A stretch of 64,000 bases of DNA from an uncultured delta proteobacterium (GCA_963717985.1 CAVQYC010000005.1:73106-137105); one strand, 5' to 3'; numbered from the stretch's first letter, positions 29,318 to 43,291 are shown. The notes: generated by a model from the letters alone, not told the origin. Program-made: numbers and translations.

Positions 29318-30505
29318 ATGAGAAGGACAGCACCATTCTTTGTTCTGGCAGCCATTTGTGTGGCGATTTGCCTCGTAGCGCAGCAATCTGTTGCCGCGGA
29401 AACTCGGGTCCTGAAGGTAGGATGTATAGACTCGCTGACCGGTGTGATGTCTGCGGGCGAACAACCTACGTATGCCGGCGTGAAGTTGGCTGCGGCGTGG
29501 ATCAACGACAAAGGCGGGATCACGGTCAAGGGGGTCAAGTACAAGATCGAGCTTGTCAGTGAAGACGCCAAAAGTTCGCCTGAAGGCGCGATCGCGGCAT
29601 GTACAAAGCTCGTCGAAAAGGACAAGGTGAAGTTCATCCTCGGCGGGGTTATCACTCCAATTAACGTCGCGGCAAACTCCGTTACGGGGCCGGCAGGGGT
29701 GTTGCGCATCGGTGAATACACAATTATGGATCCGGAAGAAGCCGACCAGCTGACGTTCTATACCAATACCACGGCTCAAGGGATGAGGCCCATGTTGGCG
29801 TACCTGAAGGAGGCCTACCCTAAAGTGAAGACATTGGCCGCTTCGCAACCGGGCGACGGAGGGGATAAATTCAGGGGAAAAATTTTCGCGCAGATAGCTA
29901 ACGACCTTGGCTTTACGGTCTTAATAAACGTAGGCTGGCCATTAGATACGGTAGATTTTACCCCGTTTATTCAGAAGCTTATAGCCGTAAAGCCGGACGC
30001 CTTCCTCTTCACGGACGGATGGGTGGTGCATGCGGCAGCTCAAGTAAAGGTCCTGCGCGGTCTCGGTTACAAAGGCCCCATCATGTCCACCGATTCAGAG
30101 ATAGTCAGCGAGCTCCTGGCGATAACCGGTCCTCAACTGGGAGATGGTTATGCGTCCGCCGCATGGGACATGACGGACCCCCACATGAAGCCGGTTTTTA
30201 AGAAGGAATTCCTGCCCAGGGCGGTAAAGAGCGGTGACACGAACCCATGGCAGGCATGGGGGTGGAATACCCTCTGGATCCTCGCGCAGGGGATCGAGTC
30301 GGCCAATAGCCTGGATCCTGCGGTGGTGGCAAAACACCTGCGGACGATGAAACTCGTCGAAACCGTTTTTGGGCCCGCGCAAATCGGCGGCGGGAAAACG
30401 TTCGGGAATGGGGTCAACAGTATATTCTGCTCGCCTCAGGCAATATTCAGGGTAAAGAACGGCAAACCAGTGTTCGTAAAGTGGGTCTCGACCTGGGTGC
30501 CTTAA
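29318..30505 (+). CDS. ABC transporter substrate-binding protein (LivJ/branched-chain amino acid type fold)
   Basis: SD GAGGGAGG upstream. Signal peptide MRRTAPFFVLAAICVAICLVAQQSVAA. 395 aa, followed by LivHMGF-like genes. Confidence 0.8.
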   Translation: MRRTAPFFVLAAICVAICLVAQQSVAAETRVLKVGCIDSLTGVMSAGEQPTYAGVKLAAAWINDKGGITVKGVKYKIELVSEDAKSSPEGAIAACTKLVEKDKVKFILGGVITPINVAANSVTGPAGVLRIGEYTIMDPEEADQLTFYTNTTAQGMRPMLAYLKEAYPKVKTLAASQPGDGGDKFRGKIFAQIANDLGFTVLINVGWPLDTVDFTPFIQKLIAVKPDAFLFTDGWVVHAAAQVKVLRGLGYKGPIMSTDSEIVSELLAITGPQLGDGYASAAWDMTDPHMKPVFKKEFLPRAVKSGDTNPWQAWGWNTLWILAQGIESANSLDPAVVAKHLRTMKLVETVFGPAQIGGGKTFGNGVNSIFCSPQAIFRVKNGKPVFVKWVSTWVP

Positions 30506-30601
30506 GATAACGCGATAAAATTACGGGCCGGCAGGTGGAAGCTAAATCCTTTCGCCGGCCGGCCGGGCAACAGCCGCGAATGAACCCCGGAGGAGAGAAG
30601 C

Positions 30602-31462
30602 GTGGTGTCACAGGCGGCAGGGCACGCAATAAACGTGCTGATGATCTCGTCAATATATGTGTTGGTGGCGCTGGGGTTCGCCCTTGTTTTCAGTGTCATG
30701 CGGATAATGAATTTTGCTCACGGTGCCATCTATATGATCGGGGGCTTCATCTGCTACACTTTTTGGGTAACTCTGGGTCTCGGCCCATGGGCCGCCCTGC
30801 CGCTGACCATGCTCGTGACGGGCCTGTTCGGGCTTTTTGTAGAGAAATTCTGCTTCAGGCCCTTTCAGCGTGACTTCGAGAAAGCGACCCTCATGGCTAT
30901 CGCGCTAGTTATCGTCCTAAAGACCACCGCCGATCTTACCATCGGCCCTATCAGCAGAAGCATGCCGCCGTTGTTGTCCGGCAGCGTGAATATAGGTGGG
31001 GCCGTCCTTGGGGCCGACAGGCTGATGGTGCTCATTATCGCCGCCGCCCTGCTCACGGCACTTATGCTGCTCGTGCAAAAAACCATGATGGGCCGGGCCA
31101 TGCTCGCCATAGCCCACGATCCTGAAGCCGCTTCTTTGATGGGAATAAATACCCATCGTATTTCCGCTCTTGTCTGCGCGACGGGGTGCGGGTTGGCCGG
31201 TCTCGCCGGGGGACTTATCGGATCGGTGCTGGTCCTCCATGTGATAATAGCAGACACGATGCTGGTAAAGATCATCGAAGTCGTTATTTTAGCTGGAATA
31301 GGCAGCATTGGCGGAATTTGGGCAGGGGGGCTTGCCATGGGCGTGATCGACGGTCTCGGTCCGTATTTTCTGTCCAACGTGTTCTCTGATCCCCTCGGGC
31401 TTGCCCTCGTGATCGTCATCCTCGTGGTAAGGCCGCAGGGCTTTTACGGGCATGAAATGTAA
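30602..31462 (+). CDS. livH: branched-chain amino acid-type ABC permease
   Basis: GTG start with SD GGAGGAG. 286-aa polytopic protein with a LivH-like N-terminus (SSIYVLVALGFALVF). Confidence 0.8.
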   Translation: MVSQAAGHAINVLMISSIYVLVALGFALVFSVMRIMNFAHGAIYMIGGFICYTFWVTLGLGPWAALPLTMLVTGLFGLFVEKFCFRPFQRDFEKATLMAIALVIVLKTTADLTIGPISRSMPPLLSGSVNIGGAVLGADRLMVLIIAAALLTALMLLVQKTMMGRAMLAIAHDPEAASLMGINTHRISALVCATGCGLAGLAGGLIGSVLVLHVIIADTMLVKIIEVVILAGIGSIGGIWAGGLAMGVIDGLGPYFLSNVFSDPLGLALVIVILVVRPQGFYGHEM

Positions 31463-31479
31463 GTGAAAGTTGATCCGAC

Positions 31480-32448
31480 ATGAATCAGGAACGACAAGAA
31501 TATGGAAGGATTTTCGGCATCATCGCGATCGTCGTCTTGGTGTTCCTAGGTCCCCTTATCGTTTCAACTTACTATATCCATCTTGCCGTTCTGGTCTTTA
31601 TCTATATCATGGCTACCAGCAGCCTTCGGATCCTCTATATCTCCGGTCAGATCTCCCTGGGCCACGCCGGTTTCATGGCTATCGGCGCATATACGTCGGC
31701 CATGCTGGCAAAGCACCTCGGCTGGAGCCCCTGGTGTGCGATGCCTGCTGGTGCGATAGTGGCCATGGTGTGCGGCATTCTCATTGGTTTCCCATTTTCC
31801 CGCCTGAGAGTGATCTATTTTTCCATGGCCAGCCTGTTCTTCGGGATCATGATTATGAACATGGTGGGATTGGCGCCCGACGTCACCGGATCTTGGTCCG
31901 GTCTCGCCCGCATACCGCGCCTCTTCGGTCCCTCAAGAGTCCCCTATTATTACACTTTCCTTGTCTTGACCCTGATTACCCTTCTCGTGCTTTACCGCAT
32001 AGAACATTCCCGGCTCGGAATGACTTTGAAAAGTGTTGCCCAATCTCATCTTGCCGCTTCCAGCAGGGGTATTAATGAAGCGGGGATCAGGATACTCGCC
32101 TTAAGCATAGGAGCTTTCTTTGCCGGCCTGGCCGGAGGCGCCTACGCGCATTACGAGACCCTCATATCACCCGCCACATTCGGCGTCATGCCCAGCATAC
32201 TCCTCCTCGTCTATTTACTCGCCGGTGGAAAGGGGAGTTTTGCCGGGCCTATCCTGGGCACGGCCATACTATACCTCGTTCCCTACATTATGGGCGAGTT
32301 CAAAGGATACGCACCTTACTTTCAAGCGGGCGTCATAGTGGCGGTTATTTTCTTGGTACCGGAGGGCATGACCAGTCTCTTCAAGCAAATTGCGTCATGG
32401 GCAAGAGAACGTCAGAAACAACGCGGGACATCCAAATATGCTTCTTAA
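31480..32448 (+). CDS. livM: branched-chain amino acid-type ABC permease
   Basis: 322-aa polytopic protein, second permease of the set. Confidence 0.8.
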   Translation: MNQERQEYGRIFGIIAIVVLVFLGPLIVSTYYIHLAVLVFIYIMATSSLRILYISGQISLGHAGFMAIGAYTSAMLAKHLGWSPWCAMPAGAIVAMVCGILIGFPFSRLRVIYFSMASLFFGIMIMNMVGLAPDVTGSWSGLARIPRLFGPSRVPYYYTFLVLTLITLLVLYRIEHSRLGMTLKSVAQSHLAASSRGINEAGIRILALSIGAFFAGLAGGAYAHYETLISPATFGVMPSILLLVYLLAGGKGSFAGPILGTAILYLVPYIMGEFKGYAPYFQAGVIVAVIFLVPEGMTSLFKQIASWARERQKQRGTSKYAS

Positions 32449-33208
32449 GACAAGTAACCTCACCAAATATTTTGGAGGACTCGCGGCTGTTTCCGGTGTC
32501 GATATCTGTGTCGAGGAGGGTCAGATTGTCGGTCTGATCGGGCCGAACGGCGCCGGCAAGACGACGCTCATAAATCTGGTGAGCGGCTTCCTGCGGCCCA
32601 CGACTGGGAGCGTTTTTTTTGACGGAAGGGACGTTACCGGTAAAAAGCCGCACCTGCTCGCGCGGATGGGGATCGGACGCACCTTTCAAATTACCCCGAT
32701 TTTTGGGGAATTCACCACTTTCAAGAATATAGTTTCCTCCTTCTACCTTTCTGCAGACAGGAGTCTCGTGGGAAGCCTGTTCAACACACCCACATACCGG
32801 AAGAAGGAGGCATATATTGCCGATCTGGCCGAAGAGAGTTTGCGGCTTGTGGGACTGACGGGAGTGAAAGATGAGCTCGCCAGAAACCTGCCTCACGGCT
32901 ACCAAAAAGTGCTCGACCTTGCCATGGCTCTGGCCATCAAGCCGAAGCTCCTGTTACTCGACGAGCCCATGGGCGGTATGAGCCAGGACGAGATAGAGTT
33001 GGCCCTGAATGCAATCAGAAAAGTGCATTCTCAGGGGACCACCATCCTCCTTGTGGAACATAATGTATCGATAGTAATGGACCTTTGCGAGCATATCGTG
33101 GTTGTCGACTATGGGTGCAAGATTGCGGAAGGCTCTCCGGAGGAAGTGAAAAAGGACGAACAAGTGATCCGGGCCTACTTTGGTGGTGGTTATGCTGCTC
33201 AGGGTTGA
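32438..33208 (+). CDS. livG: ABC transporter ATP-binding protein
   Basis: Walker A GPNGAGKTT, signature LPHGYQK, Walker B LLLLDEP. ATG 32438 overlaps the livM end. Confidence 0.85.
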   Translation: MLLKTSNLTKYFGGLAAVSGVDICVEEGQIVGLIGPNGAGKTTLINLVSGFLRPTTGSVFFDGRDVTGKKPHLLARMGIGRTFQITPIFGEFTTFKNIVSSFYLSADRSLVGSLFNTPTYRKKEAYIADLAEESLRLVGLTGVKDELARNLPHGYQKVLDLAMALAIKPKLLLLDEPMGGMSQDEIELALNAIRKVHSQGTTILLVEHNVSIVMDLCEHIVVVDYGCKIAEGSPEEVKKDEQVIRAYFGGGYAAQG

Positions 33209-33899
33209 AGCGATTACCGTGCATTACGAAAAGGCGAAAGCGTTGGACGGCGTTTCTTTCCGCGTGGACGAAGGAAGCGTTGTCTCCGTCATAGGAAGCA
33301 ACGGAGCGGGGAAGAGCACGATTTTCAAGGCCCTTTCAGGGCTGAAGTCGCTCACCTCGGGGGAAATCTGGTTTCTGGACAAGAGGATAGACGGCATGGC
33401 TATCCATGATATCGTGAGGCTCGGCCTTATCCACCTTCCTGAGGGCCGAAGGCTGTTTTCAAATCTCACCGTCCTTTCAAATCTCAAGCTTGGCGCCTAC
33501 TTCCGGAACGACACAACCGGCGTCAGGAAAGACCTGGAAGAGGTTTTCACGCTATTCCCCAAGCTGAAGGGGAGACTCGGTCAAAAGGCCGGGACCATGA
33601 GCGGCGGTGAGCAGCAAATGCTCGCGATCGGCAGGGCGTTAATGGGTAGGCCAAAACTGCTGTTGATGGACGAACCGTCCTTGGGGCTCGCCCCTATACT
33701 CGTAGACGAATTGGCCCCCGTGATCAGGAAGATAAATAAGCTTGGTGTCGGCGTTATTCTGGTAGAGCAGAATGTTCCTCTCGCGTTCAAGGTGGCGGAT
33801 AGAGGGTACGTATTACAGGTCGGTAGAATTGTACAGGAAGGCACGTGCGATGAACTTAAGGGTAGCGAAACCGTGAGGAGAGCATACATGGGGGGGTAA
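33192..33899 (+). CDS. livF: ABC transporter ATP-binding protein
   Basis: Walker A GSNGAGKST, signature MSGGEQQML, Walker B LLLMDEPS. Confidence 0.85.
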   Translation: MLLRVEAITVHYEKAKALDGVSFRVDEGSVVSVIGSNGAGKSTIFKALSGLKSLTSGEIWFLDKRIDGMAIHDIVRLGLIHLPEGRRLFSNLTVLSNLKLGAYFRNDTTGVRKDLEEVFTLFPKLKGRLGQKAGTMSGGEQQMLAIGRALMGRPKLLLMDEPSLGLAPILVDELAPVIRKINKLGVGVILVEQNVPLAFKVADRGYVLQVGRIVQEGTCDELKGSETVRRAYMGG

Positions 33900-33991: not shown

Positions 33992-35098
33992 ATGAAGGCG
34001 TTGAACATTACCATTGACGGCGTTAAGGTGGGATCCCCTTCGGGTGCCACCATCCTAGAGGCAGCGGAAAAAGCAGGCATCGAGATTCCACGGCTCTGCC
34101 ACCAGGAAGGGATCAAGCCGTCGGGTAACTGTCGCGTCTGCGTTGTTGAGGTGGAGGGCTCACGTACGCTTGTCGGTTCGTGTCATACGCCCATAGTCGA
34201 GGGCATGGTCGTCCGCAGCCGCTCCCCTAGGGTTCTTGAAGCCAGGAAGACAACGATAGAGCTTCTCCTCACCGGTCACACGGGGACGTGCGTCACGGAT
34301 ACGGAGGCCCGGGAGTGCGCCCTGCACAAGCTCGCTTCCGATCTCGAGGTGGGTCCTCCCCGCCTCCACGTGAAGCGCCCCCGTCTCTATGCCGTAGAAG
34401 AGGGTCCTTACGTGCGGAGGGACATGTCGCGGTGCATCCTCTGCAGGAAGTGCATCCGCGCCTGTAAGGAGGTTGCCGGACAGAACATTTACAGCATGGC
34501 CTATAGAGGTTTCGACTCGAAAGTGGTGGTCGACTGCGACATCCCCCTCAATAAGGAGGTTTGTAAGGACTGCGGCGTCTGTATCAAGTACTGTCCCACG
34601 TCTGCTCTCATGTGGCCCGAAGGGGTGAAGAAGAGAGACGGCGCGACAAGGAAAAAGGCCACCGCGGCCATACCCGGCAACGGTCATTCCACGAGGCTCC
34701 TCGATCTGCTGAAAAACCGTCTTCGCACGGAAGGCTCTCTCTCTCGGGAGTCCTTCTCCGAGATCGCCCGTGATCTCGATCTCCCTTTGAGCGACGTCTA
34801 CGGTGTGGCGACCTTCTACTCCTTTCTTTCGACTAAGCCCCGGGGCAGACACGTGATCAGGGTCTGCAAAAGCCTTCCCTGTTATCTCAAGAATGGTCTG
34901 ATGATCATTGACGCAGTATCCAGGACGATAGGCATCGGGGTCGGTGGGACCACCGCGGACGGCAGGTTCTCCTTTGAGCTGACGAATTGCGTCGGGGCAT
35001 GCGACAAAGCCCCGGCCATGCTCGTCGACGATACAGTCTACGGGGACCTCACGCCGGATACAATCGTAGATGTTCTGAAGTCGTACGGAGGGAAGTAG
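33992..35098 (+). CDS. fusion protein: NuoG/HydA-type N-terminal [2Fe-2S] + 2x[4Fe-4S] module fused to a NuoE-type thioredoxin-like [2Fe-2S] domain
   Basis: SD GAGGTGG upstream. Motifs LCHQEGIKPSGNCRVCVVEV, CILCRKCIRAC, CKDCGVCIKYCP, then VCKSLPCYLKNG...NCVGACDKAP. Confidence 0.8.
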   Translation: MKALNITIDGVKVGSPSGATILEAAEKAGIEIPRLCHQEGIKPSGNCRVCVVEVEGSRTLVGSCHTPIVEGMVVRSRSPRVLEARKTTIELLLTGHTGTCVTDTEARECALHKLASDLEVGPPRLHVKRPRLYAVEEGPYVRRDMSRCILCRKCIRACKEVAGQNIYSMAYRGFDSKVVVDCDIPLNKEVCKDCGVCIKYCPTSALMWPEGVKKRDGATRKKATAAIPGNGHSTRLLDLLKNRLRTEGSLSRESFSEIARDLDLPLSDVYGVATFYSFLSTKPRGRHVIRVCKSLPCYLKNGLMIIDAVSRTIGIGVGGTTADGRFSFELTNCVGACDKAPAMLVDDTVYGDLTPDTIVDVLKSYGGK

Positions 35099-35100
35099 CC

Positions 35101-36309
35101 ATGACAGAGAGAATCGTCCTGCGATACAGCCACGCAATTGACCCGGACGATATTGCCGCATATGTCCGACGGGGTGGTTTCCATGCCTTCTCCAAAGCCC
35201 GGAAGATGGGCCGCGAGAAGGTCATCGCCGAGATTAAGGCATCAAATCTTAAAGGACGGGGAGGAGCGGGTTTCCGCTGCGGGATAAAATGGGAACTCGC
35301 GGGAAAACAGGCGAGCCATGAGAAATACCTCATCTGCAACGCCGATGAGGGCGAGGTGGGGACCTTTAAAGACCGATATATCATCGAGCACGACCCCTTT
35401 GCCTTGCTCGAAGGTATCGCCATCGCCGCGTACGCCGTAGGAGCGCATCACGCCTACCTATATCTCCGGGCAGAGTACCACTATCTTCTTGATAGACTCA
35501 AACGTGCAGTCGACCTGGCTGCTTCCAAAGGTCTTATCGACCTGTCCATTGAAATACGAGAAGGTGCGGGCGCCTATGTCTGCGGCGAGGAATCGGCGCT
35601 TATGAACTCTATCGAGGGCAAACGCGGAGAGGCCCGATTCCGTCCCCCGTTTCCCCCCACCAGCGGTCTCTTCGGCAAGCCCACCGTTATCAACAATGTA
35701 GAGACCCTGATGAATGTGGCGCCCATCATCGACAAAGGGGCCGCCTGGTTCTCTTCCATCGGCACCTCCTTCAGTACGGGCACGAAGGTCTTCTCCGTGA
35801 GCGGTGATGTGGCAAAACCCGGGGTTTATGAGTTCCCCATGGGTGTCCGCCTCTCCGAGCTCTTGACCCTCGCGGGTGCCTCCGATATTAAGATAGTCCA
35901 CATCGGCGGTGCCGGCGGCGGGGTTGTTCCCGTCTCCATGATAGAGACTCCCCTTTCTTACGAGACGGTCCTCGGGTCGGGTGCCATCACAGTGCTCGAT
36001 GCCACGAGAGACGTCATCGATTTCGTCTCGCGCACCCTCGATTTCTTGAACGGGGAGTCCTGCGGAGAGTGCACCCCGTGCAGGGAGGGTACGGAGGTGA
36101 TGGTGGAGATCCTAGGCAGGCTCGCTGAAGGCGATGGCGTCCCGGAAGACATTGAGCAACTGGAGCGGCTTTCCAGGGTCATGGTGGGCTCCTCCCTCTG
36201 TGGCCTCGGTCAGGCAGCCCCGGTCCCAGTCCTCGACACCCTCAAGTACTTCAGGAACGACTACGAGAACAGGATCAAACAGTCGGTGTTTTTGAGGACT
36301 TTGAGATGA
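35101..36309 (+). CDS. NuoF-like NADH-binding FMN/[4Fe-4S] flavoprotein
   Basis: ATG lies 3 nt after the upstream stop. Motifs GRGGAGF, NADEGEVGTFKDR, ESCGECTPCREG, SLCGLGQAAP. Confidence 0.85.
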   Translation: MTERIVLRYSHAIDPDDIAAYVRRGGFHAFSKARKMGREKVIAEIKASNLKGRGGAGFRCGIKWELAGKQASHEKYLICNADEGEVGTFKDRYIIEHDPFALLEGIAIAAYAVGAHHAYLYLRAEYHYLLDRLKRAVDLAASKGLIDLSIEIREGAGAYVCGEESALMNSIEGKRGEARFRPPFPPTSGLFGKPTVINNVETLMNVAPIIDKGAAWFSSIGTSFSTGTKVFSVSGDVAKPGVYEFPMGVRLSELLTLAGASDIKIVHIGGAGGGVVPVSMIETPLSYETVLGSGAITVLDATRDVIDFVSRTLDFLNGESCGECTPCREGTEVMVEILGRLAEGDGVPEDIEQLERLSRVMVGSSLCGLGQAAPVPVLDTLKYFRNDYENRIKQSVFLRTLR

Positions 36310-36399
36310 GAGGAAAGCGTTGTGTGCGCAAGGCTTCGCCCGTTTGCGCAGGCGGTAGGGGAGACGGGAGCCGAGAGCACGTGATCAAGGAGGAGCGAT

Positions 36400-36969
36400 A
36401 TGGAACCTGTTTGCCTTTGTCCTTACTGTAGAAAGCGCTTTGCCGACCATGAGTTACTCAAGGCCCACGTGGTTGAGGAGCACGGGTCCGCTCCTTTGCC
36501 CAAGCCCGACGGACACATTACGCTTACCGTCAATGGCCAGCGCTACGAGCAGAAGGTAGAGCCGGAATGGACGCTGCACTACCTGCTTCACGATAAGCTC
36601 GGTTTTACCGGCGCGAAACAGATGTGCGACCGCGGGGTCTGCGGCTCGTGTACGGTGATCATGGACTGTAAGGCGATACTTTCGTGTATGACCCTCGCCA
36701 TAGAATGCGACGGAAAACGAGTGGAAACGGTGGAGGGCATTGCCGCAGCCGATCACCCGCTCATCGAGGAATACGTAAAACACCATTGCATGCAGTGCGG
36801 TTATTGCACGCCGGGTTTTGTAGTGACGGCAAAGGCCTTGCTCGACAAAGACCCCGATCCTACGGAGGAAGAGATCAGAGAGGCCCTGGGAGGCAATCTT
36901 TGCCGGTGCGGAACGTATCCTCAGCATCCCAAGGCGGTGCTGGCGGCAGCCCGAAAGCTGGTCAAATAG
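36400..36969 (+). CDS. [2Fe-2S] small subunit of a xanthine-dehydrogenase/CO-dehydrogenase-family enzyme with a 37-aa N-terminal C2H2 zinc-finger extension
   Basis: SD AAGGAGG is 6 nt before ATG 36400. Motifs CDRGVCGSCTV, QCGYCTPG, CRCGTY. N-terminus reads CPYCRKRFADHELLKAHVVEEH. Confidence 0.85.
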   Translation: MEPVCLCPYCRKRFADHELLKAHVVEEHGSAPLPKPDGHITLTVNGQRYEQKVEPEWTLHYLLHDKLGFTGAKQMCDRGVCGSCTVIMDCKAILSCMTLAIECDGKRVETVEGIAAADHPLIEEYVKHHCMQCGYCTPGFVVTAKALLDKDPDPTEEEIREALGGNLCRCGTYPQHPKAVLAAARKLVK

Positions 36970-37062
36970 AAGGAGGATGACCGATAAACCGGAACCGGGG
37001 GCAACGCCTCATCGTGTCCAATAAAGCGGCCGTTGTCTCGGAAAAACCGGAGGAGGAAGGAA

Positions 37063-38037
37063 ATGGAATCCTTTTCACACTTCAACGCGCAAACAATTGA
37101 CGACGCTGTTTTGATACTGAGGAGGTATGGCGACAGGGCCCATGTGATCGCGGGCGGCACCGATCTCATCGGCAAGATGAAGGATAGAATACTGCCGGGA
37201 TACCCAGAAGCCCTGGTAAACATTAAGACTATCCCGAACCTAGGTTTTATAGAAACAAGAAACGGCATGGCGAGGATCGGCCCACTCTGCACGCTTGAGG
37301 AAATTGCGAAGAGCGAAATGGTAACCCACCATTGGCCGGCATTGACACAAGCAGCGGCCAGAGCTGCATCCCCTCATCTCAGGGAAATGGGGACCATCGG
37401 CGGCAATATCTGTCAGGATATCCGGTGCTGGTACTATAGAAGCCCCGACAACCGGTTTCCATGTCTCAGAAAAGGTGGAGGGAGGTGTTATGCCATCGAG
37501 GGAGACAACCGCTTTCATTCCATATTCGGCGGAAGTGTACAGGAAGGGTGCTGTGCCGTTCATCCTAGCGATGTCGCACCGGCCCTGGTTGCGCTCGGTG
37601 GCAGCGTGAAGACCACACAAAGGACGGTACCGATAGAGAGCTTCTTTAGGGTTTCGGTACAGCAGACGACCATCCTGGATGCGGATGAGATCGTGACGGA
37701 GATCCGGCTTCCATTACCGGCGGAAGGCACCAAGAGCGCTTTTGGGAAGTTTGCCCTGAGGGCATCGATCGACTTCCCCATAGTGAATTGCGCCGCGGCC
37801 GTCACCGTTTCGCAGGGAAGGGCTATCGCCGCAAGGATCTGTCTCAACGCCGTATACGTCACGCCATACAGGCCCGCCGCGTCAGAAGAGGCGATCCTTG
37901 GAAAGCCGCTCACCGATATGAATATAGAACGCGCCGCGGATGCGGCCGTATCCGGCGCCAAGCCGCTGAGCCGTAACCGATATATGGTCCAGATTGCCCG
38001 GACCATGGTCAAGAGGGCATTACTCGCCTGCAGGTAG
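37063..38037 (+). CDS. FAD-binding medium subunit of the XDH family with a Cys-rich insertion
   Basis: SD GGAGGAGG upstream. VIAGGTDLIGKMK and TIGGNIC are FAD_binding_5 hallmarks. Insertion reads CQDIRCWYYRSPDNRFPCLRKGGGRC. Confidence 0.8.
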   Translation: MESFSHFNAQTIDDAVLILRRYGDRAHVIAGGTDLIGKMKDRILPGYPEALVNIKTIPNLGFIETRNGMARIGPLCTLEEIAKSEMVTHHWPALTQAAARAASPHLREMGTIGGNICQDIRCWYYRSPDNRFPCLRKGGGRCYAIEGDNRFHSIFGGSVQEGCCAVHPSDVAPALVALGGSVKTTQRTVPIESFFRVSVQQTTILDADEIVTEIRLPLPAEGTKSAFGKFALRASIDFPIVNCAAAVTVSQGRAIAARICLNAVYVTPYRPAASEEAILGKPLTDMNIERAADAAVSGAKPLSRNRYMVQIARTMVKRALLACR

Positions 38038-38244
38038 TGCGATGACCGTGAGCGTGAGGGTCTTTTAGCCACCGACAGAACCGGGGTGCTCACGAAGAAC
38101 GGTTCCCTCTTCCTCCGTACCGGGGGATGAACATTACGCGGTGGCTTCCAGAGGGCGGGATCTCGCTCTATACCTCGAGTTTAGGCCGAAGTCCACACAA
38201 ATAGGTTGACATTCATTCTGGCTGTGTTGTATGAAGTGGAAGGA

Positions 38245-38757
38245 ATGAAGCTCGGCAGCGCGCAAGATTACAAGTTCACCGACCTTGTTACGATCAAGAC
38301 CATTCAAGACCTTGTAAACCGCTTTCATGCATTGACAAGAAGGGGCATAGCGGTTTTCGGCGTGGACGGGAGCATATTGGTAAGCTCGCCCGGGCAGCGT
38401 CTATGCCTCGGTTTCCACCGCAAGAATCCGCATTCCGCAAAACTGTGCAGGGAAAGCGACCTCGCGATAACCAGGTTAATAGATCAAGAGAAAGGTTGCG
38501 TTATCCATAGATGCAAGCACGGCTTGATAGATTTTGCGGCTCCCGTGGTGGTTGAAGGCAAGCACATCGCCAACGTTTTCGGCGGGCAGTTTTTCACAGA
38601 AAGGCCGGATATGAAATTCTTCGAGGAGCGGGCCGGGACATTCGGATTCGATGTGGCTGAATACCTGGAGGCATTACGTGAGGTGCCGGTCCACAGAAAA
38701 AGCAGCATCAAGGTGATTCTCGAGGTATCTCGAGGGGTTCGCTCAACTCCTGGCTGA
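38245..38757 (+). CDS. PocR ligand-sensing domain ORF (5' part of a frameshifted sensor kinase)
   Basis: ...CLGFHRKNPHSAKLCRESD...HRCKHGLIDFAAPVVVEGKHIANVFGGQF. Start is uncertain (TTG 38206 or ATG 38245). Confidence 0.65.
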   Translation: MKLGSAQDYKFTDLVTIKTIQDLVNRFHALTRRGIAVFGVDGSILVSSPGQRLCLGFHRKNPHSAKLCRESDLAITRLIDQEKGCVIHRCKHGLIDFAAPVVVEGKHIANVFGGQFFTERPDMKFFEERAGTFGFDVAEYLEALREVPVHRKSSIKVILEVSRGVRSTPG

Positions 38758-38758
38758 C

Positions 38759-39859
38759 ATGGCTCAAGGGCGAATGCGGGAGTTGGGGGGTGAAGTCGCA
38801 TTGCGTGAGAGTGAAAAGAAATACCGCAGTATCTTCGAGAACGCTGCCGAAGGAATATTCCAGGCGACTGTGGAGGGTCGTTATTTGGACGTGAATCCCG
38901 CCTTTACTTCCATGCTCGGTTATGCAGACTCGAAGGAGTTGATTACAAGAGTTACCAACATCCGAGGGCAACAGTTCGTGAAGCGTGAGGATGCCGTGCG
39001 ATTTGAGAAGCTCCTTCGGGAGAACGGTACGGTGCAGGAATTCGAGACGCAGTTCTATAAAAAAAATGGACGAAAGACCTGGCTATCAGTAAACGCGCGG
39101 GTCGCTCACGGCAGGTGTGGGGGGCTGTTTTACGAAGGGACTGCAAAGAATATTACGAAACAGAAAGAGGCGGAACAAGCAACGCTGGCCGCACGAGAGA
39201 GGCTGCAAAGCCTGTCTCGAAGCCTGCTGCAAAGAATGGAAGCAGAACGGCACCTCTTGGCTTATGAGCTCCATGATGAAATAGGTCAGGTATTGACGGC
39301 CGTGAGAATCAACGTAGACTCGGTGCGACGTCTGGCTGACGAGTCAGAACGCGCCTCTCGAATAGACGAAAGCATTGAGATAATCGATAAGGCACTTGCT
39401 CAGGTTCGCGCTTTGTCGCTGAACCTGCGGCCGTCGATGCTGGACGATTTGGGCCTCGTGGTCGCGCTTAGATGGCTTGCGGACAGTGTGTCCAGAACTT
39501 ATCCCGTGAACATAAAGGTAGATGCCGGACCGATCCGCACACGGTTGGATGCGGAGGTTGAAACCACCTGTTTTCGGGTAGCCCAGGAGGCTGTGACAAA
39601 CGCCTTACGACACGCAAAACCGGACGAGATTCGTATTTCTGTCAAGGAACAACGTAACAGGCTCCACCTGCGTGTCTGTAACGACGGGACAGGTTTTAAC
39701 GTTAAGTTGGCTCGCGCGCTTGCCGTTCGGGGGGAGAGCTTTGGTTTGCTTGGAATGGAAGAACGCGTCTTGCTATGCGGCGGTGTTTTTCGTATTGTCT
39801 CTCAAACAGAAAGCGGCACACAATTGGTGGCAATACTTCCGCTTAAAGGGGGCATCTGA
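38759..39859 (+). CDS. PAS + HisKA_3 + HATPase_c histidine kinase part (NarX/DegS-type)
   Basis: PAS region (SEKKYRSIFENAAEGIFQ), H-box LAYELHDEIGQVL, and an ATPase C-terminal part. The frame continues upstream into the PocR ORF if 10 nt are removed. Confidence 0.75.
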   Translation: MAQGRMRELGGEVALRESEKKYRSIFENAAEGIFQATVEGRYLDVNPAFTSMLGYADSKELITRVTNIRGQQFVKREDAVRFEKLLRENGTVQEFETQFYKKNGRKTWLSVNARVAHGRCGGLFYEGTAKNITKQKEAEQATLAARERLQSLSRSLLQRMEAERHLLAYELHDEIGQVLTAVRINVDSVRRLADESERASRIDESIEIIDKALAQVRALSLNLRPSMLDDLGLVVALRWLADSVSRTYPVNIKVDAGPIRTRLDAEVETTCFRVAQEAVTNALRHAKPDEIRISVKEQRNRLHLRVCNDGTGFNVKLARALAVRGESFGLLGMEERVLLCGGVFRIVSQTESGTQLVAILPLKGGI

Positions 39860-39860
39860 A

Positions 39861-40532
39861 ATGAAGAAGATTAGGATCATGCTCGCCGACGATCATGCCC
39901 TGGTCAGAGCCGGATTTCGGCTGCTTCTCCATGAAATCCCCGACATTGAAGTAGTTGCGGAGGCGGGTGAAGGCTACGAAGTATTGAGGCAGATCAGAGA
40001 GAAACTTCCCGATATAGTGCTCATGGACATAGCGATGCCGGGATTGAATGGCCTTGAGGTATCTGCAAGAATAAGTAAGGAGGTCAAGGACGTCCACATT
40101 ATTTTCGTGTCGATGCATGATGACAGGCAATATGTGATGCAGGCCCTCAATGTTGGAGCTGCCGGATACGTGCTCAAGAACGCGGACCGCAGCGAGCTGG
40201 AGCTTGCTATCAGATCGGCCATGAAAGGAGAACCTTACCTGAGCCCTGCGGTCTCCAAGCAACTTATCGAGGGCTACACAGCTCGCAAGCGAGGGCTGGA
40301 AACCGAAACGCCAGCAGACCTGGAGGGGAGCCCGTACGAGAGACTTACCCCTCGCCAGCGACAGATCCTGCAACTGATCGCCGAGGGCAATACGTGCAAA
40401 GAGATTGCACAAAGGCTCAACCTGAGCTTCAGGACAGTGCAGGTACATCGCACACAGCTCATGAACCGCCTCAACATCCATGACACCGCCAACCTTGTGC
40501 GCTACGCTGTGAAGGCTAAGATAATCGTATAG
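39861..40532 (+). CDS. NarL/LuxR-family response regulator
   Basis: ATG lies 2 nt after the kinase stop. MKKIRIMLADDHALVRAG...VLMDIAMPGLNG... and a C-terminal LuxR HTH (LTPRQRQILQLIAEGNTCKEIAQRLNLSFRTVQVHR). Confidence 0.9.
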   Translation: MKKIRIMLADDHALVRAGFRLLLHEIPDIEVVAEAGEGYEVLRQIREKLPDIVLMDIAMPGLNGLEVSARISKEVKDVHIIFVSMHDDRQYVMQALNVGAAGYVLKNADRSELELAIRSAMKGEPYLSPAVSKQLIEGYTARKRGLETETPADLEGSPYERLTPRQRQILQLIAEGNTCKEIAQRLNLSFRTVQVHRTQLMNRLNIHDTANLVRYAVKAKIIV

Positions 40533-41649
40533 ACTCTTCTCCAGAATTAAGTAACGATTGGAGTCGCCGCAGACGCAACTTTTATGGGATTATCCATGAG
40601 ATCGCAGAGGGCATGATCGGCCCTCTCGATCAGGGCAGCTTTGCTCTTGCAGTGGATGTTCGCGAAGTGCTCGGCCTTCATGATGAGCCAAACCCTTTCT
40701 ATAGGATTGAAGTCTGGCGAATAGGGAGGAAGATAAACCGGTTCAAAGAAGTGCCAGTTAAGACTCTTCCGTTTATGCCAGGAAGCATTATCGAGAATGA
40801 GAATATTCCGTTTCCGGGAAGGGGTGATTGATTGAGCGGCTTCATCGAGGAATGCCTGGAAAACATCCGTATCGCAATGACTTGCCTCAATGGCGAAGAA
40901 CTCCCCGGTGCGGGGGCAGACGGTTCCAACGATGTTCAGCCGGATATGATCGCCATTATGGACTACTCGGGGCTTAGATCCTTTCATGGCCCAACCCCGA
41001 CGCGGTCTCGGTTCACCGTCAATTCCGGTTTCATCCCCGTACCACAGATCAACGTCGGGATGCTCCGCAAGGCTCCGTAGTTGATCCTTGAACTCCTCTC
41101 TCAGCTTCTCATCCTGTCTGTCCGGCCAGGGCCTCGGCACTTTCAGTACATAGCCCTTCTCGTGGAGAAGACGAAGAACCGTGTTGTAGGAACACTCAAC
41201 GGAGTACTTGGCCGTGATGTGACCATGGAAGGCAGAGGCTGTCCAGAACGTCCTCTGGGCGCGTCCCGGTTCTTCGAACTCTTCGATAATCTCTTCTTTC
41301 TTTTCGCCTGTAATAAGAGGTTTGCGTCCTGTCCGTCTCTTCGCAACAAGACCGTCGACGCCATAGGCATTGAAGGCCCTGATGATCTTCTTTATTGCGC
41401 TCTCCGACAGAACGAGCACCTTCATCGCCTGTTCCCTGGGAGAGCCGGTGAGAAGCATGATAATAACAAGGCATCGCCGATCGGTTTCCTTGTTGCCGGC
41501 CTTCCGAACTGCCTGAAGATCGGCGAGCGATGCGTTCTCCCCATTGGGAGTGAGATACCGTTGGGCCATGATTCATATGTAACCACATGTCTCTAGGAAT
41601 GTCTAGAATTATCAACATCAAACGGTAATTATTTCTGAGAAACGCTCTA
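40530..41649 (-). mobile_element. IS630-family insertion sequence, copy B (same orientation as copy A)
   Basis: Offset is +26,906 nt from copy A. All six-frame ORFs have identical translations, and the ends read identically. Confidence 0.9.
40547..41569 (-). CDS. IS630-family DDE transposase (identical to 13641-14663)
   Basis: Identical 340-aa translation. Confidence 0.9.
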   Translation of the reverse strand: MAQRYLTPNGENASLADLQAVRKAGNKETDRRCLVIIMLLTGSPREQAMKVLVLSESAIKKIIRAFNAYGVDGLVAKRRTGRKPLITGEKKEEIIEEFEEPGRAQRTFWTASAFHGHITAKYSVECSYNTVLRLLHEKGYVLKVPRPWPDRQDEKLREEFKDQLRSLAEHPDVDLWYGDETGIDGEPRPRRGWAMKGSKPRVVHNGDHIRLNIVGTVCPRTGEFFAIEASHCDTDVFQAFLDEAAQSITPSRKRNILILDNASWHKRKSLNWHFFEPVYLPPYSPDFNPIERVWLIMKAEHFANIHCKSKAALIERADHALCDLMDNPIKVASAATPIVT

Positions 41650-41650
41650 G

Positions 41651-41784
41651 ATCGTTTGTTTCAGGTCCTGCCTTATAAGAACTGCCGATGCCCCTAAGCA
41701 CTTCTTCGGTGCGCCATACGATTCTATAATCGTCGAACTAAGCCCTTTGCCTTATTGCCGGTCCATCGCCTGACGTGCGACAAT
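41651..41784 (+). repeat. intergenic repeat Y (paralog of 28995-29128)
   Basis: Starts at the first base after IS copy B. See repeat X. Confidence 0.7.
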
Positions 41785-41904
41785 CTCCTATCTTAATGAC
41801 GAGGGAAAAGCGAGTTCGAAAACCGCCTGAAGCTCCGGCGAAAGATCAGCTCAAGGGGTGGCGAACCTGGAGAGGAAATGACTGAGAACTCAAAGGAGGT
41901 AGGT

Positions 41905-42936: not shown

Positions 42937-43048
42937 TGAGTCATCGTTGACGGAATCGAGCAGTCTTAAAAGCGGCATTCTGATTTGCCTTCTTGACCGC
43001 CATTCTTGAATGAAGGGCAGAAGACCACAGGAAAAAGGTGGGGCGGCA

Positions 43049-43291
43049 GTGACGATACAGGTGAAAATTTACGGCACCCTCCGCTATTACAAAGAGATCG
43101 TAGAAAAGTACATTTCAGGAGAGAAGGTCGAGGTTCCGGAAGGTACGTCCGCCGGCGCAATTCTCGAGATGCTCCATCTACCGGAAAGGGTCGCGACAAT
43201 TCTTATCGTGAACGGGGCGTACACGGACAAGAAGAAGATACTGAAGGACGGGGACGCCGTTTACATCATCTCGCCCGCGAGCGGGGGATAG
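43049..43291 (+). CDS. ThiS/MoaD-family ubiquitin-fold protein ending in Gly-Gly
   Basis: VTIQVKIYGTLR...DGDAVYIISPASGG-stop. GTG 43049 has SD AAGGTGGGG; ATG 43010 is an alternative start. Confidence 0.7.
   Translation: MTIQVKIYGTLRYYKEIVEKYISGEKVEVPEGTSAGAILEMLHLPERVATILIVNGAYTDKKKILKDGDAVYIISPASGG

What the first reader, a model, noticed from the sequence alone, without database searches (positions are those of the whole stretch)
33992..38037. Candidate new redox module: NuoG-N::NuoE fusion and NuoF-like flavoprotein placed before the Fe-S and FAD subunits of an XDH-family molybdoenzyme
Four co-directional genes follow one another with gaps of 2, 90 and 93 nt.
1. One polypeptide joins a NuoG/HydA-type N-terminal [2Fe-2S] (CHQEGIKPSGNCRVCVVEV) and two ferredoxin-type [4Fe-4S] motifs to a NuoE-type thioredoxin-like [2Fe-2S] domain (CKSLPC...CVGAC). 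The His-ligated cluster motif between them looks degenerate (HTGTC...C).
2. A NuoF-like NADH/FMN/[4Fe-4S] protein.
3. A CoxS/HcrC-type double-[2Fe-2S] subunit.
4. A CoxM/HcrB-type FAD subunit with an extra Cys-rich loop.

NuoEF-like pairs are the NAD(H) entry modules of electron-bifurcating hydrogenases and formate dehydrogenases. XDH-family enzymes normally use their own FAD subunit for NAD+ or ferredoxin. A complex holding both FMN and FAD plus a long Fe-S wire could couple NADH to a low-potential reductive dehydroxylation of the 4-hydroxybenzoyl-CoA-reductase type, or run confurcation in the oxidative direction. I do not know of a characterised enzyme with this composition. The NuoG-N-before-NuoE domain order in one chain is also atypical.
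Basis: partly seen in the sequence, partly recalled or inferred. Interest (0 to 1): 0.75.

Follow-up and report, generated by a model that had tools for sequence, protein, structure and literature searches.

The report
NADH module wired to molybdenum enzyme
The window encodes a real, widely conserved but uncharacterised enzyme set in which a complex-I-type NADH-binding module sits next to the subunits of a xanthine-dehydrogenase-family molybdenum enzyme; it is probably a simple NAD(H)-linked enzyme for lignin-derived aromatics, not an electron-bifurcating one.

Summary
Genes at 33992-38037 encode four proteins:
- GE, a NuoG-N/HoxU::NuoE fusion
- F, a minimal NuoF
- S, a double-[2Fe-2S] subunit
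- M, a FAD subunit with an HcrB/PaoB-type Cys loop

The missing Mo subunit, L, lies at 43333-45762. A two-component system and a recent IS630-type insertion separate it from M.

The linkage is not accidental. Of 68 non-redundant related loci from many anaerobic phyla, 49 place GE-F beside S/L/M genes. Another 14 (13 Dehalococcoidia, 1 Calditrichales) pair an unfused version with MetV-MetF. Three features track the XDH linkage:
- a strict Cys-to-Asp change in the His-ligated cluster motif (49/49 against 0/14)
- a C2H2 zinc-finger extension on S
- the G::E fusion, in most loci

Bifurcation at FMN is not supported. F lacks the extra Fe-S domains of bifurcating HydB/BfuB and carries the complex-I motif GTFKDR. 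The Mo enzyme is not 4-hydroxybenzoyl-CoA reductase by NCBIfam cut-offs, although HcrA is its nearest solved relative. No conserved CoA ligase accompanies it.

Frequent neighbours are alcohol dehydrogenases, O-demethylase parts and aromatic-acid-type transporters. Substrate and direction remain open. I found no paper describing this architecture. I rate it a new variant of a known kind.

The parts
29318..33899 (+). liv-type ABC transporter: binding protein, two permeases, two ATPases. Context; possibly substrate uptake.
   Evidence: Pfam Peripla_BP_6, BPD_transp_2 x2, ABC_tran x2. The same genes precede GE in the closest relatives L009, L010 and L013.
33992..35098 (+). GE: fusion of a NuoG-N/HoxU-like domain with a NuoE/HoxE-like [2Fe-2S] domain. 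The N-terminal domain has a [2Fe-2S] motif, a His/Asp variant cluster motif and 2x[4Fe-4S] motifs.
   Evidence: Pfam and NCBIfam HoxU/NuoE/HoxE partial matches. Cluster motifs: C36/47/50/64; H96-C100-D103-C109; C148/151/154/158; C191/194/197/201; C292/297/333/337, invariant in A1. A GAGGTGG Shine-Dalgarno-like sequence lies just upstream of the ATG.
35101..36309 (+). F: minimal NuoF-type NADH/FMN/[4Fe-4S] subunit, 402 aa.
   Evidence: Pfam; nuoF_fam 431 bits. Only the four N3 Cys are present. It aligns to residues 116-530 of HydB 7q4v_B. The motif NADEGEVGTFKDR is shared by the family.
36400..36969 (+). S: CoxS/HcrC-type double-[2Fe-2S] subunit with a roughly 39-aa N-terminal C2H2 zinc-finger-like extension (CPYC-x12-H-x4-H).
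   Evidence: Pfam Fer2/Fer2_2 plus weak zf-C2H2_4. TIGR03193 covers only residues 40-184. The motif is present in every GE-F-linked S and absent from the Tat-type S paralogues.
37063..38037 (+). M: CoxM/HcrB-type FAD subunit with a [4Fe-4S]-type Cys loop (C117, C122, C134, C142, C163).
   Evidence: Pfam; alignments to 5y6q_B and 1rm6_B; Cys conservation in 44 homologues.
38206..39859 (+). PocR-PAS-HisKA_3 sensor kinase, split here by a 1-nt insertion near 38724.
   Evidence: Pfam. It is a single 550-aa gene in the 99.98%-identical contig L009.
39861..40532 (+). LuxR-type response regulator.
   Evidence: Pfam Response_reg + GerE. It follows the kinase in L009-L013 and L093.
40526..41653 (-). 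IS630-family insertion sequence (transposase 40547-41569) inserted between the regulator and the ADH gene.
   Evidence: Pfam DDE_3. It is 99.8% identical to a second copy at 13621-14748, and it is absent at this site in L093. In L013 the regulator is followed directly by the ADH.
41878..42936 (+). Zn-dependent alcohol dehydrogenase-family gene next to L.
   Evidence: Pfam ADH_N/ADH_zinc_N. No NCBIfam equivalog cut-off is reached. It holds the same position in L013 and L093.
43010..43291 (+). ThiS/MoaD-like small protein immediately upstream of L.
   Evidence: Pfam ThiS 8.7e-9. The same gene sits next to L or M in L094, L001 and L007 and in L017, L036, L038 and L061.
43333..45762 (+). L: molybdopterin-binding catalytic subunit of the XDH family. 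The start is approximate; the open frame begins at 43006.
   Evidence: Pfam Ald_Xan_dh_C, MoCoBD_1, MoCoBD_2. The closest solved structure is HcrA 1rm6_A at 4e-61. It is 66-74% identical to L subunits that lie inside GE-F-S-L-M clusters in L035, L036, L038 and L061.
46763..48142 (+). DesA/LigM-like tetrahydrofolate-dependent aryl O-demethylase homologue (context).
   Evidence: Pfam GCV_T. NCBIfam DesA 255 bits and LigM 251 bits, both below cut-off. A GCV_T gene also lies near L in L094.

Best explanation
GE, F, S, M and L form one soluble NAD(H)-linked molybdoenzyme of the xanthine-dehydrogenase family.

GE-F is a HoxEFU/NuoEFG-type diaphorase. NAD(H) exchanges a hydride with FMN in F. Single electrons then pass through the F [4Fe-4S] cluster and the GE clusters, leaving by the His/Asp-ligated cluster. 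From there they go to the surface [4Fe-4S] of M, then FAD, then the two [2Fe-2S] clusters of S, then the Mo-pterin in L. In effect the built-in GE wire replaces the free ferredoxin that serves 4-hydroxybenzoyl-CoA reductase.

The enzyme is not a HydABC/Bfu-type bifurcating enzyme.

I lean to the reductive direction, about 55:45. In this reading NADH drives an exergonic reduction, such as dehydroxylation, of a lignin-derived aromatic acid that is not a CoA ester.

Shown: the domain content, the cluster motifs, the conserved synteny and the lineage-specific co-variation. Inferred: the physical complex, the order of the electron path, the direction and the substrate.
For: - Domains and motifs.
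- Conserved GE-F-S/L/M linkage in 49 of 68 non-redundant loci from Syntrophorhabdales, Desulfatiglandales, Desulfobacterales, Acidobacteriota, Anaerolineales, Dehalococcoidia and others. Gene order shuffles, but the set stays together.
- The window L is 66-74% identical to L genes embedded in such clusters.
- Co-variation with the partner. The CxxD cluster variant is found in 49/49 XDH-linked loci, against CxxC in 14/14 MetFV-linked loci. The zinc-finger S is found only next to GE-F. GE is fused in 45 of the 49 XDH-linked loci; G-N and E are separate genes in 4 of them and in all 16 CxxC-type loci checked.
- F is of the non-bifurcating type. It has no extra cluster domains and carries GTFKDR (criteria from PMC9304861).
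- For the reductive lean: the sister clade pairs the same module with MetV-MetF, whose physiological NADH-driven reaction is an exergonic reduction (A. woodii-type NADH-dependent MTHFR as described in PMC5736913). HcrA is the closest solved relative of L, at 210 bits against 149 for the next. M carries the HcrB-type loop.
- Context: aryl O-demethylase parts and Pps-like genes lie nearby.
Against: - There is no biochemical, expression or structural evidence that the five proteins assemble.
- In this window L is 5.3 kb from M. In about a dozen acidobacterial loci no L was seen within the 6-7 kb of sequence held downstream. L093 has L with the same regulator and ADH but no GE-F-S-M beside it.
- The [4Fe-4S] loop of M also occurs in oxidative aldehyde oxidoreductases, and 5y6q_B is the top hit for M. 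ADH-family genes are the commonest neighbours, in 22 of 43 L-bearing loci. Both points suit an oxidative alcohol-aldehyde-acid route as well or better.
- F is more similar in sequence to bifurcating HydB cores (380 bits) than to Nqo1 (331 bits).
- NADH at -320 mV would not reach the low potentials reported for the 4-HBCR clusters (my recollection of the literature, not checked here).
Confidence: 0.55

Rival explanations
1. Same complex, opposite direction. It is an NAD+-reducing molybdenum hydroxylase or aldehyde oxidoreductase. A lignin-derived aldehyde (for example vanillin or syringaldehyde, made by the neighbouring alcohol dehydrogenase) or an aromatic or heterocyclic acid is hydroxylated at Mo. 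Electrons then run S -> FAD -> M [4Fe-4S] -> GE -> FMN -> NAD+.
For: - All characterised XDH-family enzymes except 4-HBCR are oxidative (established knowledge).
- The best solved match for M is the FAD subunit of an aldehyde oxidase, 5y6q_B at 5e-39; PaoB also matches.
- The best NCBIfam match for S is glyceraldehyde dehydrogenase gamma.
- Fe-ADH, SDR or Zn-ADH genes are the commonest neighbours, in 22 of 43 L-bearing loci.
- No conserved CoA ligase is present.
- O-demethylase genes nearby would act on the acid products.
- XdhC chaperones occur in some loci.
Against: - L is closer to HcrA than to any aldehyde oxidoreductase or XDH.
- An oxidative enzyme could reduce NAD+ at its own FAD, as true XDHs do, which makes a six-cluster detour hard to justify.
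- Passing aldehyde electrons (about -580 mV; value as tabulated in PMC9304861) to NAD+ alone wastes energy in energy-limited anaerobes.
- The sister-clade partner MetFV works reductively with NADH in the known NADH-dependent type.
Confidence: 0.3
2. Three-substrate flavin-based electron bifurcation or confurcation. NADH, ferredoxin and the Mo-site substrate are coupled, with the branch point at FMN, or at the FAD of M, whose [4Fe-4S] would be the ferredoxin site.
For: - The complex holds two flavins and three potential entry points.
- The core of F is most similar to bifurcating HydB/BfuB/NfnB, at 369-380 bits.
- Both candidate reactions (reduction of a high-potential acceptor by NADH, or aldehyde oxidation) are of types for which bifurcating enzymes exist, such as Wor-Bfu (PMC9304861).
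- The strictly conserved Asp ligand suggests a tuned cluster potential.
Against: - F lacks the N-terminal [2Fe-2S] and C-terminal 2x[4Fe-4S] domains that all Bfu enzymes share.
- F carries GTFKDR where Bfu enzymes have GAFMDR.
- No ferredoxin gene is a conserved neighbour.
- FAD-based bifurcation has never been shown in an XDH-family FAD subunit (my knowledge).
Confidence: 0.12
3. It is a genuine 4-hydroxybenzoyl-CoA reductase (HcrABC orthologue) of an obligate anaerobe that draws on NADH in place of ferredoxin, as part of a phenol/4-hydroxybenzoate pathway.
For: - HcrA, HcrB and HcrC are the best, or among the best, characterised matches.
- Phenylphosphate-synthase-like PPDK_N and PEP-utilizer genes lie at 17637-20730, and also beside the cluster in L001.
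- A CoA-ligase remnant, a MaoC gene and an enoyl-CoA hydratase gene are in the window.
Against: - All three subunits fall far below the NCBIfam equivalog cut-offs: 320/995, 154/405 and 146/258 bits.
- No intact CoA ligase is linked in any of the 68 loci. The window copy is only a 120-aa C-terminal remnant 16 kb away.
- The family has many paralogues per genome (at least 5 GE loci in one MAG) and two L classes, often in tandem. That implies several substrates.
- It is common in Acidobacteriota and Dehalococcoidia.
Confidence: 0.08
4. GE-F is not attached to the XDH subunits. It is a free-standing NADH:acceptor oxidoreductase that is merely co-regulated with different catabolic enzymes, for example to recycle NAD(H) or to reduce a diffusible carrier.
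For: - GE-F-type modules also occur next to MetV-MetF, and in one locus (L025) next to neither.
- L can be unlinked from GE-F-S-M.
Against: - GE has no recognisable substrate site other than clusters, so it needs a partner.
- The Cys-to-Asp switch and the zinc-finger S track the partner exactly.
- Synteny persists across phyla despite gene-order shuffling.
Confidence: 0.08

Closest known systems
4-hydroxybenzoyl-CoA reductase HcrABC of Thauera aromatica (PDB 1RM6/1SB3)
   Same: Three XDH-family subunits. The FAD subunit carries an inserted Cys loop that aligns with the [4Fe-4S] loop of HcrB. HcrA is the best solved match for L, full length at 4e-61.
   Different: There are two extra subunits (GE, F) carrying FMN and about six more Fe-S clusters. 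S has a zinc-finger extension. All three subunits fall far below the equivalog cut-offs. No CoA ligase is linked. The donor is presumably NADH, not free ferredoxin.
NuoEFG-type diaphorase modules of non-bifurcating enzymes: HoxEFU of bidirectional [NiFe] hydrogenase, FdsBG plus the FdsA N-terminus of NAD+-dependent formate dehydrogenase (6TG9), Nqo1-3
   Same: The same domain set: NuoF with FMN and one [4Fe-4S], NuoE [2Fe-2S], and a NuoG-N/HoxU cluster chain. Here too it wires NAD(H) to a metal active site. F has the complex-I type GTFKDR motif.
   Different: The catalytic partner is an XDH-family Mo-MCD-type enzyme with its own FAD. The G-N and E domains are fused in that order. The His cluster has Asp in place of its second Cys.
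NADH-dependent MetFV-type methylene-THF reductase (A. woodii RnfC2-MetVF), and the HoxU-like/NuoE/NuoF-MetV-MetF clusters found here (13 Dehalococcoidia, 1 Calditrichales)
   Same: This is the sister clade of the same G/E/F module, 50-53% identical, placed directly upstream of the catalytic genes. The logic is the same: an NADH-input module feeds a flavoenzyme.
   Different: G-N and E are separate genes, the His cluster keeps the canonical CxxC, and the partner is MetVF, not S/L/M.
Bfu-family bifurcating enzymes: HydABC, NiFe-Bfu, Nfn-Bfu, tungsten Wor-Bfu
   Same: The core of F and the N-terminal half of GE are most similar in sequence to HydB and HydA. Wor-Bfu shows that a pterin-dependent aldehyde oxidoreductase can be plugged into such a module (PMC9304861).
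   Different: F lacks the B2-B5 clusters and the GAFMDR signature that define the family. The partner is a Mo XDH-type enzyme, not a W-AOR-type one.
PaoABC (E. coli) and Methylobacillus aldehyde oxidase (5Y6Q)
   Same: The FAD subunit has a [4Fe-4S] loop. 5y6q_B is the best solved match for M.
   Different: PaoABC is periplasmic with a Tat signal on its S subunit (my knowledge). Tat-type S paralogues (RRDFLK motif) are encoded separately in some acidobacterial loci here, and they lack the zinc finger. Neither known enzyme has an NADH module.

Membership tests
Xanthine dehydrogenase / CO dehydrogenase family of molybdenum enzymes | Large subunit with Ald_Xan_dh_C plus the two MoCo-binding domains | tested here: met
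   Pfam 1.4e-23, 8.8e-31 and 8.4e-45, all above gathering scores.
Xanthine dehydrogenase / CO dehydrogenase family of molybdenum enzymes | Small subunit with two [2Fe-2S] domains, and a FAD_binding_5 / CO_deh_flav_C medium subunit | tested here: met
   Pfam Fer2 + Fer2_2 for S; FAD_binding_5 + CO_deh_flav_C for M.
Xanthine dehydrogenase / CO dehydrogenase family of molybdenum enzymes | Conserved active-site Glu near the C-terminus and Gln near the Mo | tested here: inconclusive
   In the phmmer alignment, the E of GIGED aligns with the E of HcrA ASEG, and the Q of QQRPH aligns with the Q of HcrA TQVPY. Equating these with bovine E1261 and Q767 rests on my recollection, not on a structure.
4-hydroxybenzoyl-CoA reductase (HcrABC/HbaBCD) | Alpha, beta and gamma subunits reach the NCBIfam equivalog cut-offs (TIGR03194, TIGR03195, TIGR03193) | tested here: not met
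   320 bits against 994.55; 154 against 404.55; 146 against 257.8.
4-hydroxybenzoyl-CoA reductase (HcrABC/HbaBCD) | Cys-rich insertion in the FAD subunit that binds a [4Fe-4S] cluster | tested here: met
   The loop aligns with 1rm6_B. Five Cys are conserved in 42-44 of 44 homologues, four of them in all 44. The feature is not unique to Hcr: PaoB and 5y6q_B have it too.
4-hydroxybenzoyl-CoA reductase (HcrABC/HbaBCD) | Acts on a CoA thioester, with a 4-hydroxybenzoate-CoA ligase in the pathway | tested here: inconclusive
   No AMP-binding ligase family appears among the conserved neighbours in 68 loci. The window has only a truncated remnant at 17073-17600. Ligases could be encoded elsewhere.
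4-hydroxybenzoyl-CoA reductase (HcrABC/HbaBCD) | Reduced ferredoxin as donor; irreversible reductive dehydroxylation | not testable with these tools
   This needs enzyme assays.
Bfu (HydABC-type) electron-bifurcating enzymes | BfuB with five Fe-S clusters: an N-terminal [2Fe-2S] domain and a C-terminal 2x[4Fe-4S] domain in addition to the N3-type cluster | tested here: not met
   F is 402 aa, and the family is about 397-417 aa. It has only four cluster Cys. It aligns to residues 116-530 of the 599-aa HydB.
Bfu (HydABC-type) electron-bifurcating enzymes | Conserved A202/M204 (GAFMDR) in the NAD/FMN pocket, per PMC9304861 | tested here: not met
   F has GTFKDR. The lysine is in 66 of 68 aligned family sequences, and none has methionine. 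The third residue named in the paper (F182) could not be mapped by my count.
Non-bifurcating NuoEFG/HoxEFU-type NAD(H) diaphorase modules | NuoF FMN/NADH domain with one [4Fe-4S]; NuoE-type [2Fe-2S] with four Cys; NuoG-N/HoxU chain | tested here: met
   Pfam and NCBIfam matches and invariant Cys sets. One deviation: the His cluster is H-C-D-C, not H-C-C-C. NCBIfam equivalog cut-offs for NuoE, NuoF, NuoG and HoxU are not reached, so it is not complex I or Hox itself.

The most novel reading that the evidence does not exclude
GE-F-S-M-L is a new class of flavin-based electron-bifurcating molybdoenzyme. It would couple NADH oxidation at FMN to two things at once: reduction of ferredoxin, at or near the FAD/[4Fe-4S] of M, and an exergonic reductive dehydroxylation of lignin-derived phenolic acids at Mo. 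The Asp-ligated cluster would act as the gate. This would give peat and sediment anaerobes an energy-conserving electron sink tied to O-demethylation.
Probability: 0.12. Interest if true: 0.9.

Novelty: new variant of a known kind. Interest (0 to 1): 0.62.

Why it matters
- It would add a five-subunit, NAD(H)-wired class to the xanthine-dehydrogenase family. As far as I know and could find, the family's known members use their own FAD, a quinone, cytochromes or free ferredoxin.
- The module is not rare. The best 80 came from Syntrophorhabdales, Desulfatiglandales, Desulfobacterales, Acidobacteriota, Dehalococcoidia and other MAGs, several labelled as peat-bog (SPRUCE, bog) isolates. One MAG carries at least five copies.
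- It is often encoded beside aryl O-demethylase components, alcohol dehydrogenases and organic-acid transporters. It may therefore be a recurrent but unassigned step in the anaerobic turnover of lignin-derived aromatics.
- It is a natural test case for what separates bifurcating from non-bifurcating NuoF modules, and for how one diaphorase module is re-plugged between partners (XDH against MetFV) with small adaptive changes: the Cys-to-Asp switch, the zinc finger and the gene fusion.

Tried and rejected
- **Promoter and terminator scan of 29000-46800.** Hits were at or below the shuffled expectation, so it says nothing about transcription units.
- **Literature.** No paper links NuoEF-like genes to Hcr or XDH subunits. 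PMC9973337 concerns an Nfn homologue. PMC5946492 only lists 4-HBCR. The Bfu survey never mentions xanthine or molybdenum. The 4-HBCR structure paper is not held, so active-site comparison with HcrA stayed at the level of a phmmer alignment.
The single-sequence model has mean pLDDT 43.6 and is not usable. Its beta-beta-alpha pattern at residues 5-28 is only a hint.
- **Search for a cultured host.** A third protein search seeded from a Firmicutes MAG returned only metagenomic proteins among the 120 best hits listed.
- **Programmed read-through or selenocysteine** at the in-frame stop between the G-N and E parts in MetFV-linked loci: rejected. All three stop codons occur, sometimes several in a row, followed by an ATG.
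- **L at 43333 as an unrelated paralogue:** rejected. It is 66-74% identical to L genes embedded in GE-F-S-L-M clusters, and its separation from M is explained by the two-component genes plus an IS insertion absent from relatives.

Full report
**1. What is in the window**

Pfam confirms every proposed domain at E-values far beyond chance:
- GE carries Fer2_4, a weak NADH-G_4Fe-4S_3 match, Fer4_Nqo3 and 2Fe-2S_thioredx.
- F carries Complex1_51K, SLBB and NADH_4Fe-4S.
- S carries Fer2 and Fer2_2.
- M carries FAD_binding_5 and CO_deh_flav_C.

In NCBIfam the N-terminal half of GE resembles HoxU and the N-terminus of NADH-dependent [FeFe] hydrogenases. Its C-terminal half resembles NuoE/HoxE, and F resembles NuoF. 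None reaches an equivalog cut-off. So GE-F is a HoxEFU/NuoEFG-like diaphorase, but it is not complex I or Hox itself.

The molybdenum subunit is also present. L lies at 43333-45762 and has Ald_Xan_dh_C, MoCoBD_1 and MoCoBD_2. A ThiS/MoaD-like gene (43010-43291) and a Zn-alcohol-dehydrogenase gene (41878-42936) precede it.

Between M and the ADH gene lie three elements:
- a PocR-PAS histidine kinase, split here by a 1-nt insertion relative to a 99.98%-identical metagenomic contig
- a LuxR-type response regulator
- an IS630-family element of 1128 bp with a 99.8%-identical twin at 13621-14748. It is absent from this site in relative L093, and in L013 the regulator is followed directly by the ADH.

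**2. The linkage is conserved**

The GE fusion has thousands of full-length homologues, all from metagenomes or MAGs. The best 80 came from Syntrophorhabdales, Desulfatiglandales, Desulfobacterales, Acidobacteriota, Anaerolineales, Dehalococcoidia and other MAGs.

I mapped the five window proteins onto 92 fetched loci and clustered all neighbouring ORFs. Of 68 non-redundant loci:
- 49 have XDH-family S, L or M genes next to GE-F
- 14 have MetV-MetF (13 by the automatic count, plus L064, which has the same gene pattern)
- 4 are too short to judge
- 1 (L025) has neither

Gene order varies: GE-F-S-L-M, GE-F-L-S-M, GE-F-S-M-L and M-GE-F-S-L all occur. The set stays together. The gene upstream of GE differs from locus to locus (liv, Fe-ADH, SDR, isochorismatase). 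The conserved partner is the XDH set, not the liv genes.

The closest relatives (100% and 89% identity) share the window's order: liv-GE-F-(SDR)-S-M-kinase-regulator-ADH. The window L is 66-74% identical to L genes that sit inside GE-F-S-L-M clusters elsewhere, for example L035, L036, L038 and L061. So it is the cognate catalytic subunit and not a stray paralogue.

**3. Features that co-vary with the partner**

Three lineage-specific features point to a physical and functional coupling.

(a) The 'degenerate' His-cluster motif is H-x3-C-x2-D-x5-C in all 49 XDH-linked loci. It is the canonical H-x3-C-x2-C-x5-C in all 14 MetFV-linked loci. In complex I and hydrogenases this cluster lies at the exit of the NuoG-N chain (established structures; my inference for this protein). 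An Asp ligand there suggests tuning at the interface with the partner.

(b) Every S subunit encoded next to GE-F has a roughly 39-aa N-terminal extension with a classical C2H2 zinc-finger spacing, CPYC-x12-H-x4-H. The Tat-signal S paralogues encoded elsewhere in the same acidobacterial loci lack it, and the HcrC model covers only residues 40-184.

(c) The G-N and E parts are fused in 45 of the 49 XDH-linked loci. They are separate genes, ending in ordinary stop codons, in all 16 CxxC-type loci checked (the 14 MetFV-linked ones plus two with too little downstream sequence) and in four XDH-linked loci.

**4. Bifurcation is unlikely at FMN**

The published survey of HydABC-type (Bfu) enzymes states that all bifurcating members share a BfuB with five clusters. 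Non-bifurcating homologues (Nqo1, HoxF, Syntrophomonas HydB) keep only one. The survey also names conserved residues, A202 and M204, in the NAD/FMN pocket (PMC9304861).

F is 402 aa, and its family is about 397-417 aa. It has only the four N3 Cys. It aligns to residues 116-530 of the 599-aa HydB, so both terminal Fe-S domains are missing. It reads GTFKDR where Bfu enzymes read GAFMDR; of the 68 aligned family sequences, 66 keep the lysine and none has methionine.

The core of F is nevertheless more similar to HydB (380 bits) than to Nqo1 (331 bits). So descent from a Bfu-like ancestor, or bifurcation elsewhere such as at FAD, cannot be excluded. I give that reading about 0.12.

**5. What the Mo enzyme is**

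HcrA is the best solved match for L: 4e-61 over the full length, with the next hit at 1.7e-42. M carries the Cys loop found in HcrB.

However, L, M and S score only 320, 154 and 146 bits against the 4-HBCR equivalog cut-offs of 995, 405 and 258. The top structural match for M is an aldehyde oxidase FAD subunit with the same loop. No CoA ligase is a conserved neighbour. The window holds only a 120-aa ligase remnant 16 kb upstream.

The family is also paralogue-rich. One MAG has at least five GE loci. There are two L classes, about 50% and about 70% identical to the window L, and they sit in tandem in five loci.

I therefore do not file it as 4-HBCR. It is a separate clade of the XDH family, probably with several substrates.

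**6. Context and likely role**

Recurrent neighbours:
- Fe-ADH, SDR or Zn-ADH genes, in 22 of 43 L-bearing loci
- corrinoid protein, URO-D-type and pterin-binding methyltransferases (O-demethylase parts), in 9 of 43
- liv-ABC, TRAP or MFS transporters
- ThiS-like, XdhC and LarA-like genes

The window itself adds several related genes:
- a DesA/LigM-like demethylase just downstream of L
- a corrinoid/methyltransferase set at 1348-4237
- a phenylphosphate-synthase-like pair at 17637-20730 and a UPF0261 gene. These also flank the cluster in L001.

This points to lignin-derived methoxylated or hydroxylated aromatics as the metabolic setting.

Two directions fit. In the first, NADH drives a reduction, such as dehydroxylation, of the demethylated phenolic acid. 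This is analogous to the NADH-dependent MetFV reaction of the sister clade. In the second, an aromatic aldehyde or acid is oxidised and NAD+ is reduced. I lean slightly to the reductive direction, because of the HcrA affinity, the parallel with MetFV, and the redundancy of a long wire for an oxidative enzyme that already has FAD. The frequent ADH neighbours argue the other way.

**7. Mechanism proposed**

Shown: the domain content, the motifs, the synteny and the co-variation. Inferred: all of the following.

NAD(H) binds F. FMN passes single electrons to the F [4Fe-4S], then along the [2Fe-2S] and [4Fe-4S] clusters of GE to the His/Asp cluster. From there they reach the surface [4Fe-4S] of M, which is the ferredoxin entry point in 4-HBCR. 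They continue to FAD, then the two [2Fe-2S] clusters of S, then the Mo-pterin of L. The zinc finger of S and the fusion linker of GE would hold the two modules together.

**8. Novelty and limits**

No paper in the searchable library describes this composition. All close homologues carry generic names and come from uncultured organisms.

Both building blocks are well known, and similar plug-in logic exists in FdsABG, HoxEFU, RnfC2-MetVF and Wor-Bfu. I therefore rate it a new variant of a known kind, with interest 0.62.

Nothing here demonstrates assembly, expression, substrate or direction. The promoter/terminator scan was uninformative, and the only structure model obtained is of low confidence.

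Noticed in passing
window 36400-36500 (N-terminus of S); same position in 30 related loci: There is a classical C2H2 zinc-finger spacing, CPYC-x12-H-x4-H, on a bacterial [2Fe-2S] subunit. It is present in every S encoded next to GE-F and absent from the Tat-type S paralogues. Bacterial C2H2 fingers are uncommon. I propose that it is a docking element.
   Followed up: partly
window 34277-34318 (GE residues 96-109): The His-ligated cluster motif has Asp in place of its second Cys. This holds in 49/49 XDH-linked loci, against Cys in 14/14 MetFV-linked loci.
   Followed up: yes
L046, L052, L054, L064, L069, L071, L075-L077, L080-L082, L091, L092: In thirteen Dehalococcoidia loci and one Calditrichales locus, an unfused HoxU-like/NuoE/NuoF trio sits directly upstream of MetV-MetF (methylene-THF reductase), often with a histidine kinase and response regulators interleaved. 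This looks like an undescribed NADH-linked MTHFR type.
   Followed up: partly
window 13621-14748 and 40526-41653: Two 99.8%-identical copies of a 1128-bp IS630-family element. The second copy is inserted between the response regulator and the ADH gene and may overlap the last few bases of the regulator gene (the blast boundaries are approximate). An almost identical metagenomic contig, L009, breaks exactly at this element.
   Followed up: yes
window ~38724: One extra G relative to the 99.98%-identical contig L009 splits the PocR-PAS-HisKA_3 kinase into ORFs 38206-38757 and 38759-39859. It is either a real pseudogene or an assembly error.
   Followed up: partly
window 17073-20730 and 24356-25591; L001 2391-6474: A phenylphosphate-synthase-like pair (PPDK_N, then PEP-utilizers) and a UPF0261 gene recur next to the GE-F-S-L-M cluster in L001. 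There they sit with biotin carboxylase, a carboxyltransferase and thiolase/DUF35 genes. In the window the pair is preceded by a truncated CoA-ligase remnant at 17073-17600.
   Followed up: partly
window 21-4237 and 46763-48142: Several O-demethylation-related genes are present: the C-terminal part of a bis-MGD molybdopterin oxidoreductase (cut by the window edge), a corrinoid protein, two URO-D-type methyltransferases, and, downstream of L, a DesA/LigM-like THF-dependent demethylase homologue.
   Followed up: partly
L023, L048, L050, L051, L068: Two full-length L genes of different classes (about 50% and about 70% identical to the window L) lie in tandem between one S and one M. One electron-transfer module may serve two catalytic subunits.
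   Followed up: no
L039, L053, L057, L062 (also L049, L060 by tblastn), minus strand: In acidobacterial loci, a second S (with a Tat signal in the three full-length copies), an M and a U32-family gene lie downstream of GE-F-S-M on the opposite strand, with no L in view.
   Followed up: no
L093 (L subunit 87% identical to the window's): This relative has liv-SDR-kinase-regulator-ADH-L but no GE-F-S-M between the liv genes and the kinase. L can therefore be linked to the regulator and ADH without the electron-transfer genes.
   Followed up: no
window 56088-59012, minus strand: Three genes with NAD_binding_1/DHODB_Fe-S, Fer4_22 and Fer4 dicluster domains. They form an Asr-like or hydrogenase-like electron-transfer set unrelated to the finding.
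   Followed up: no
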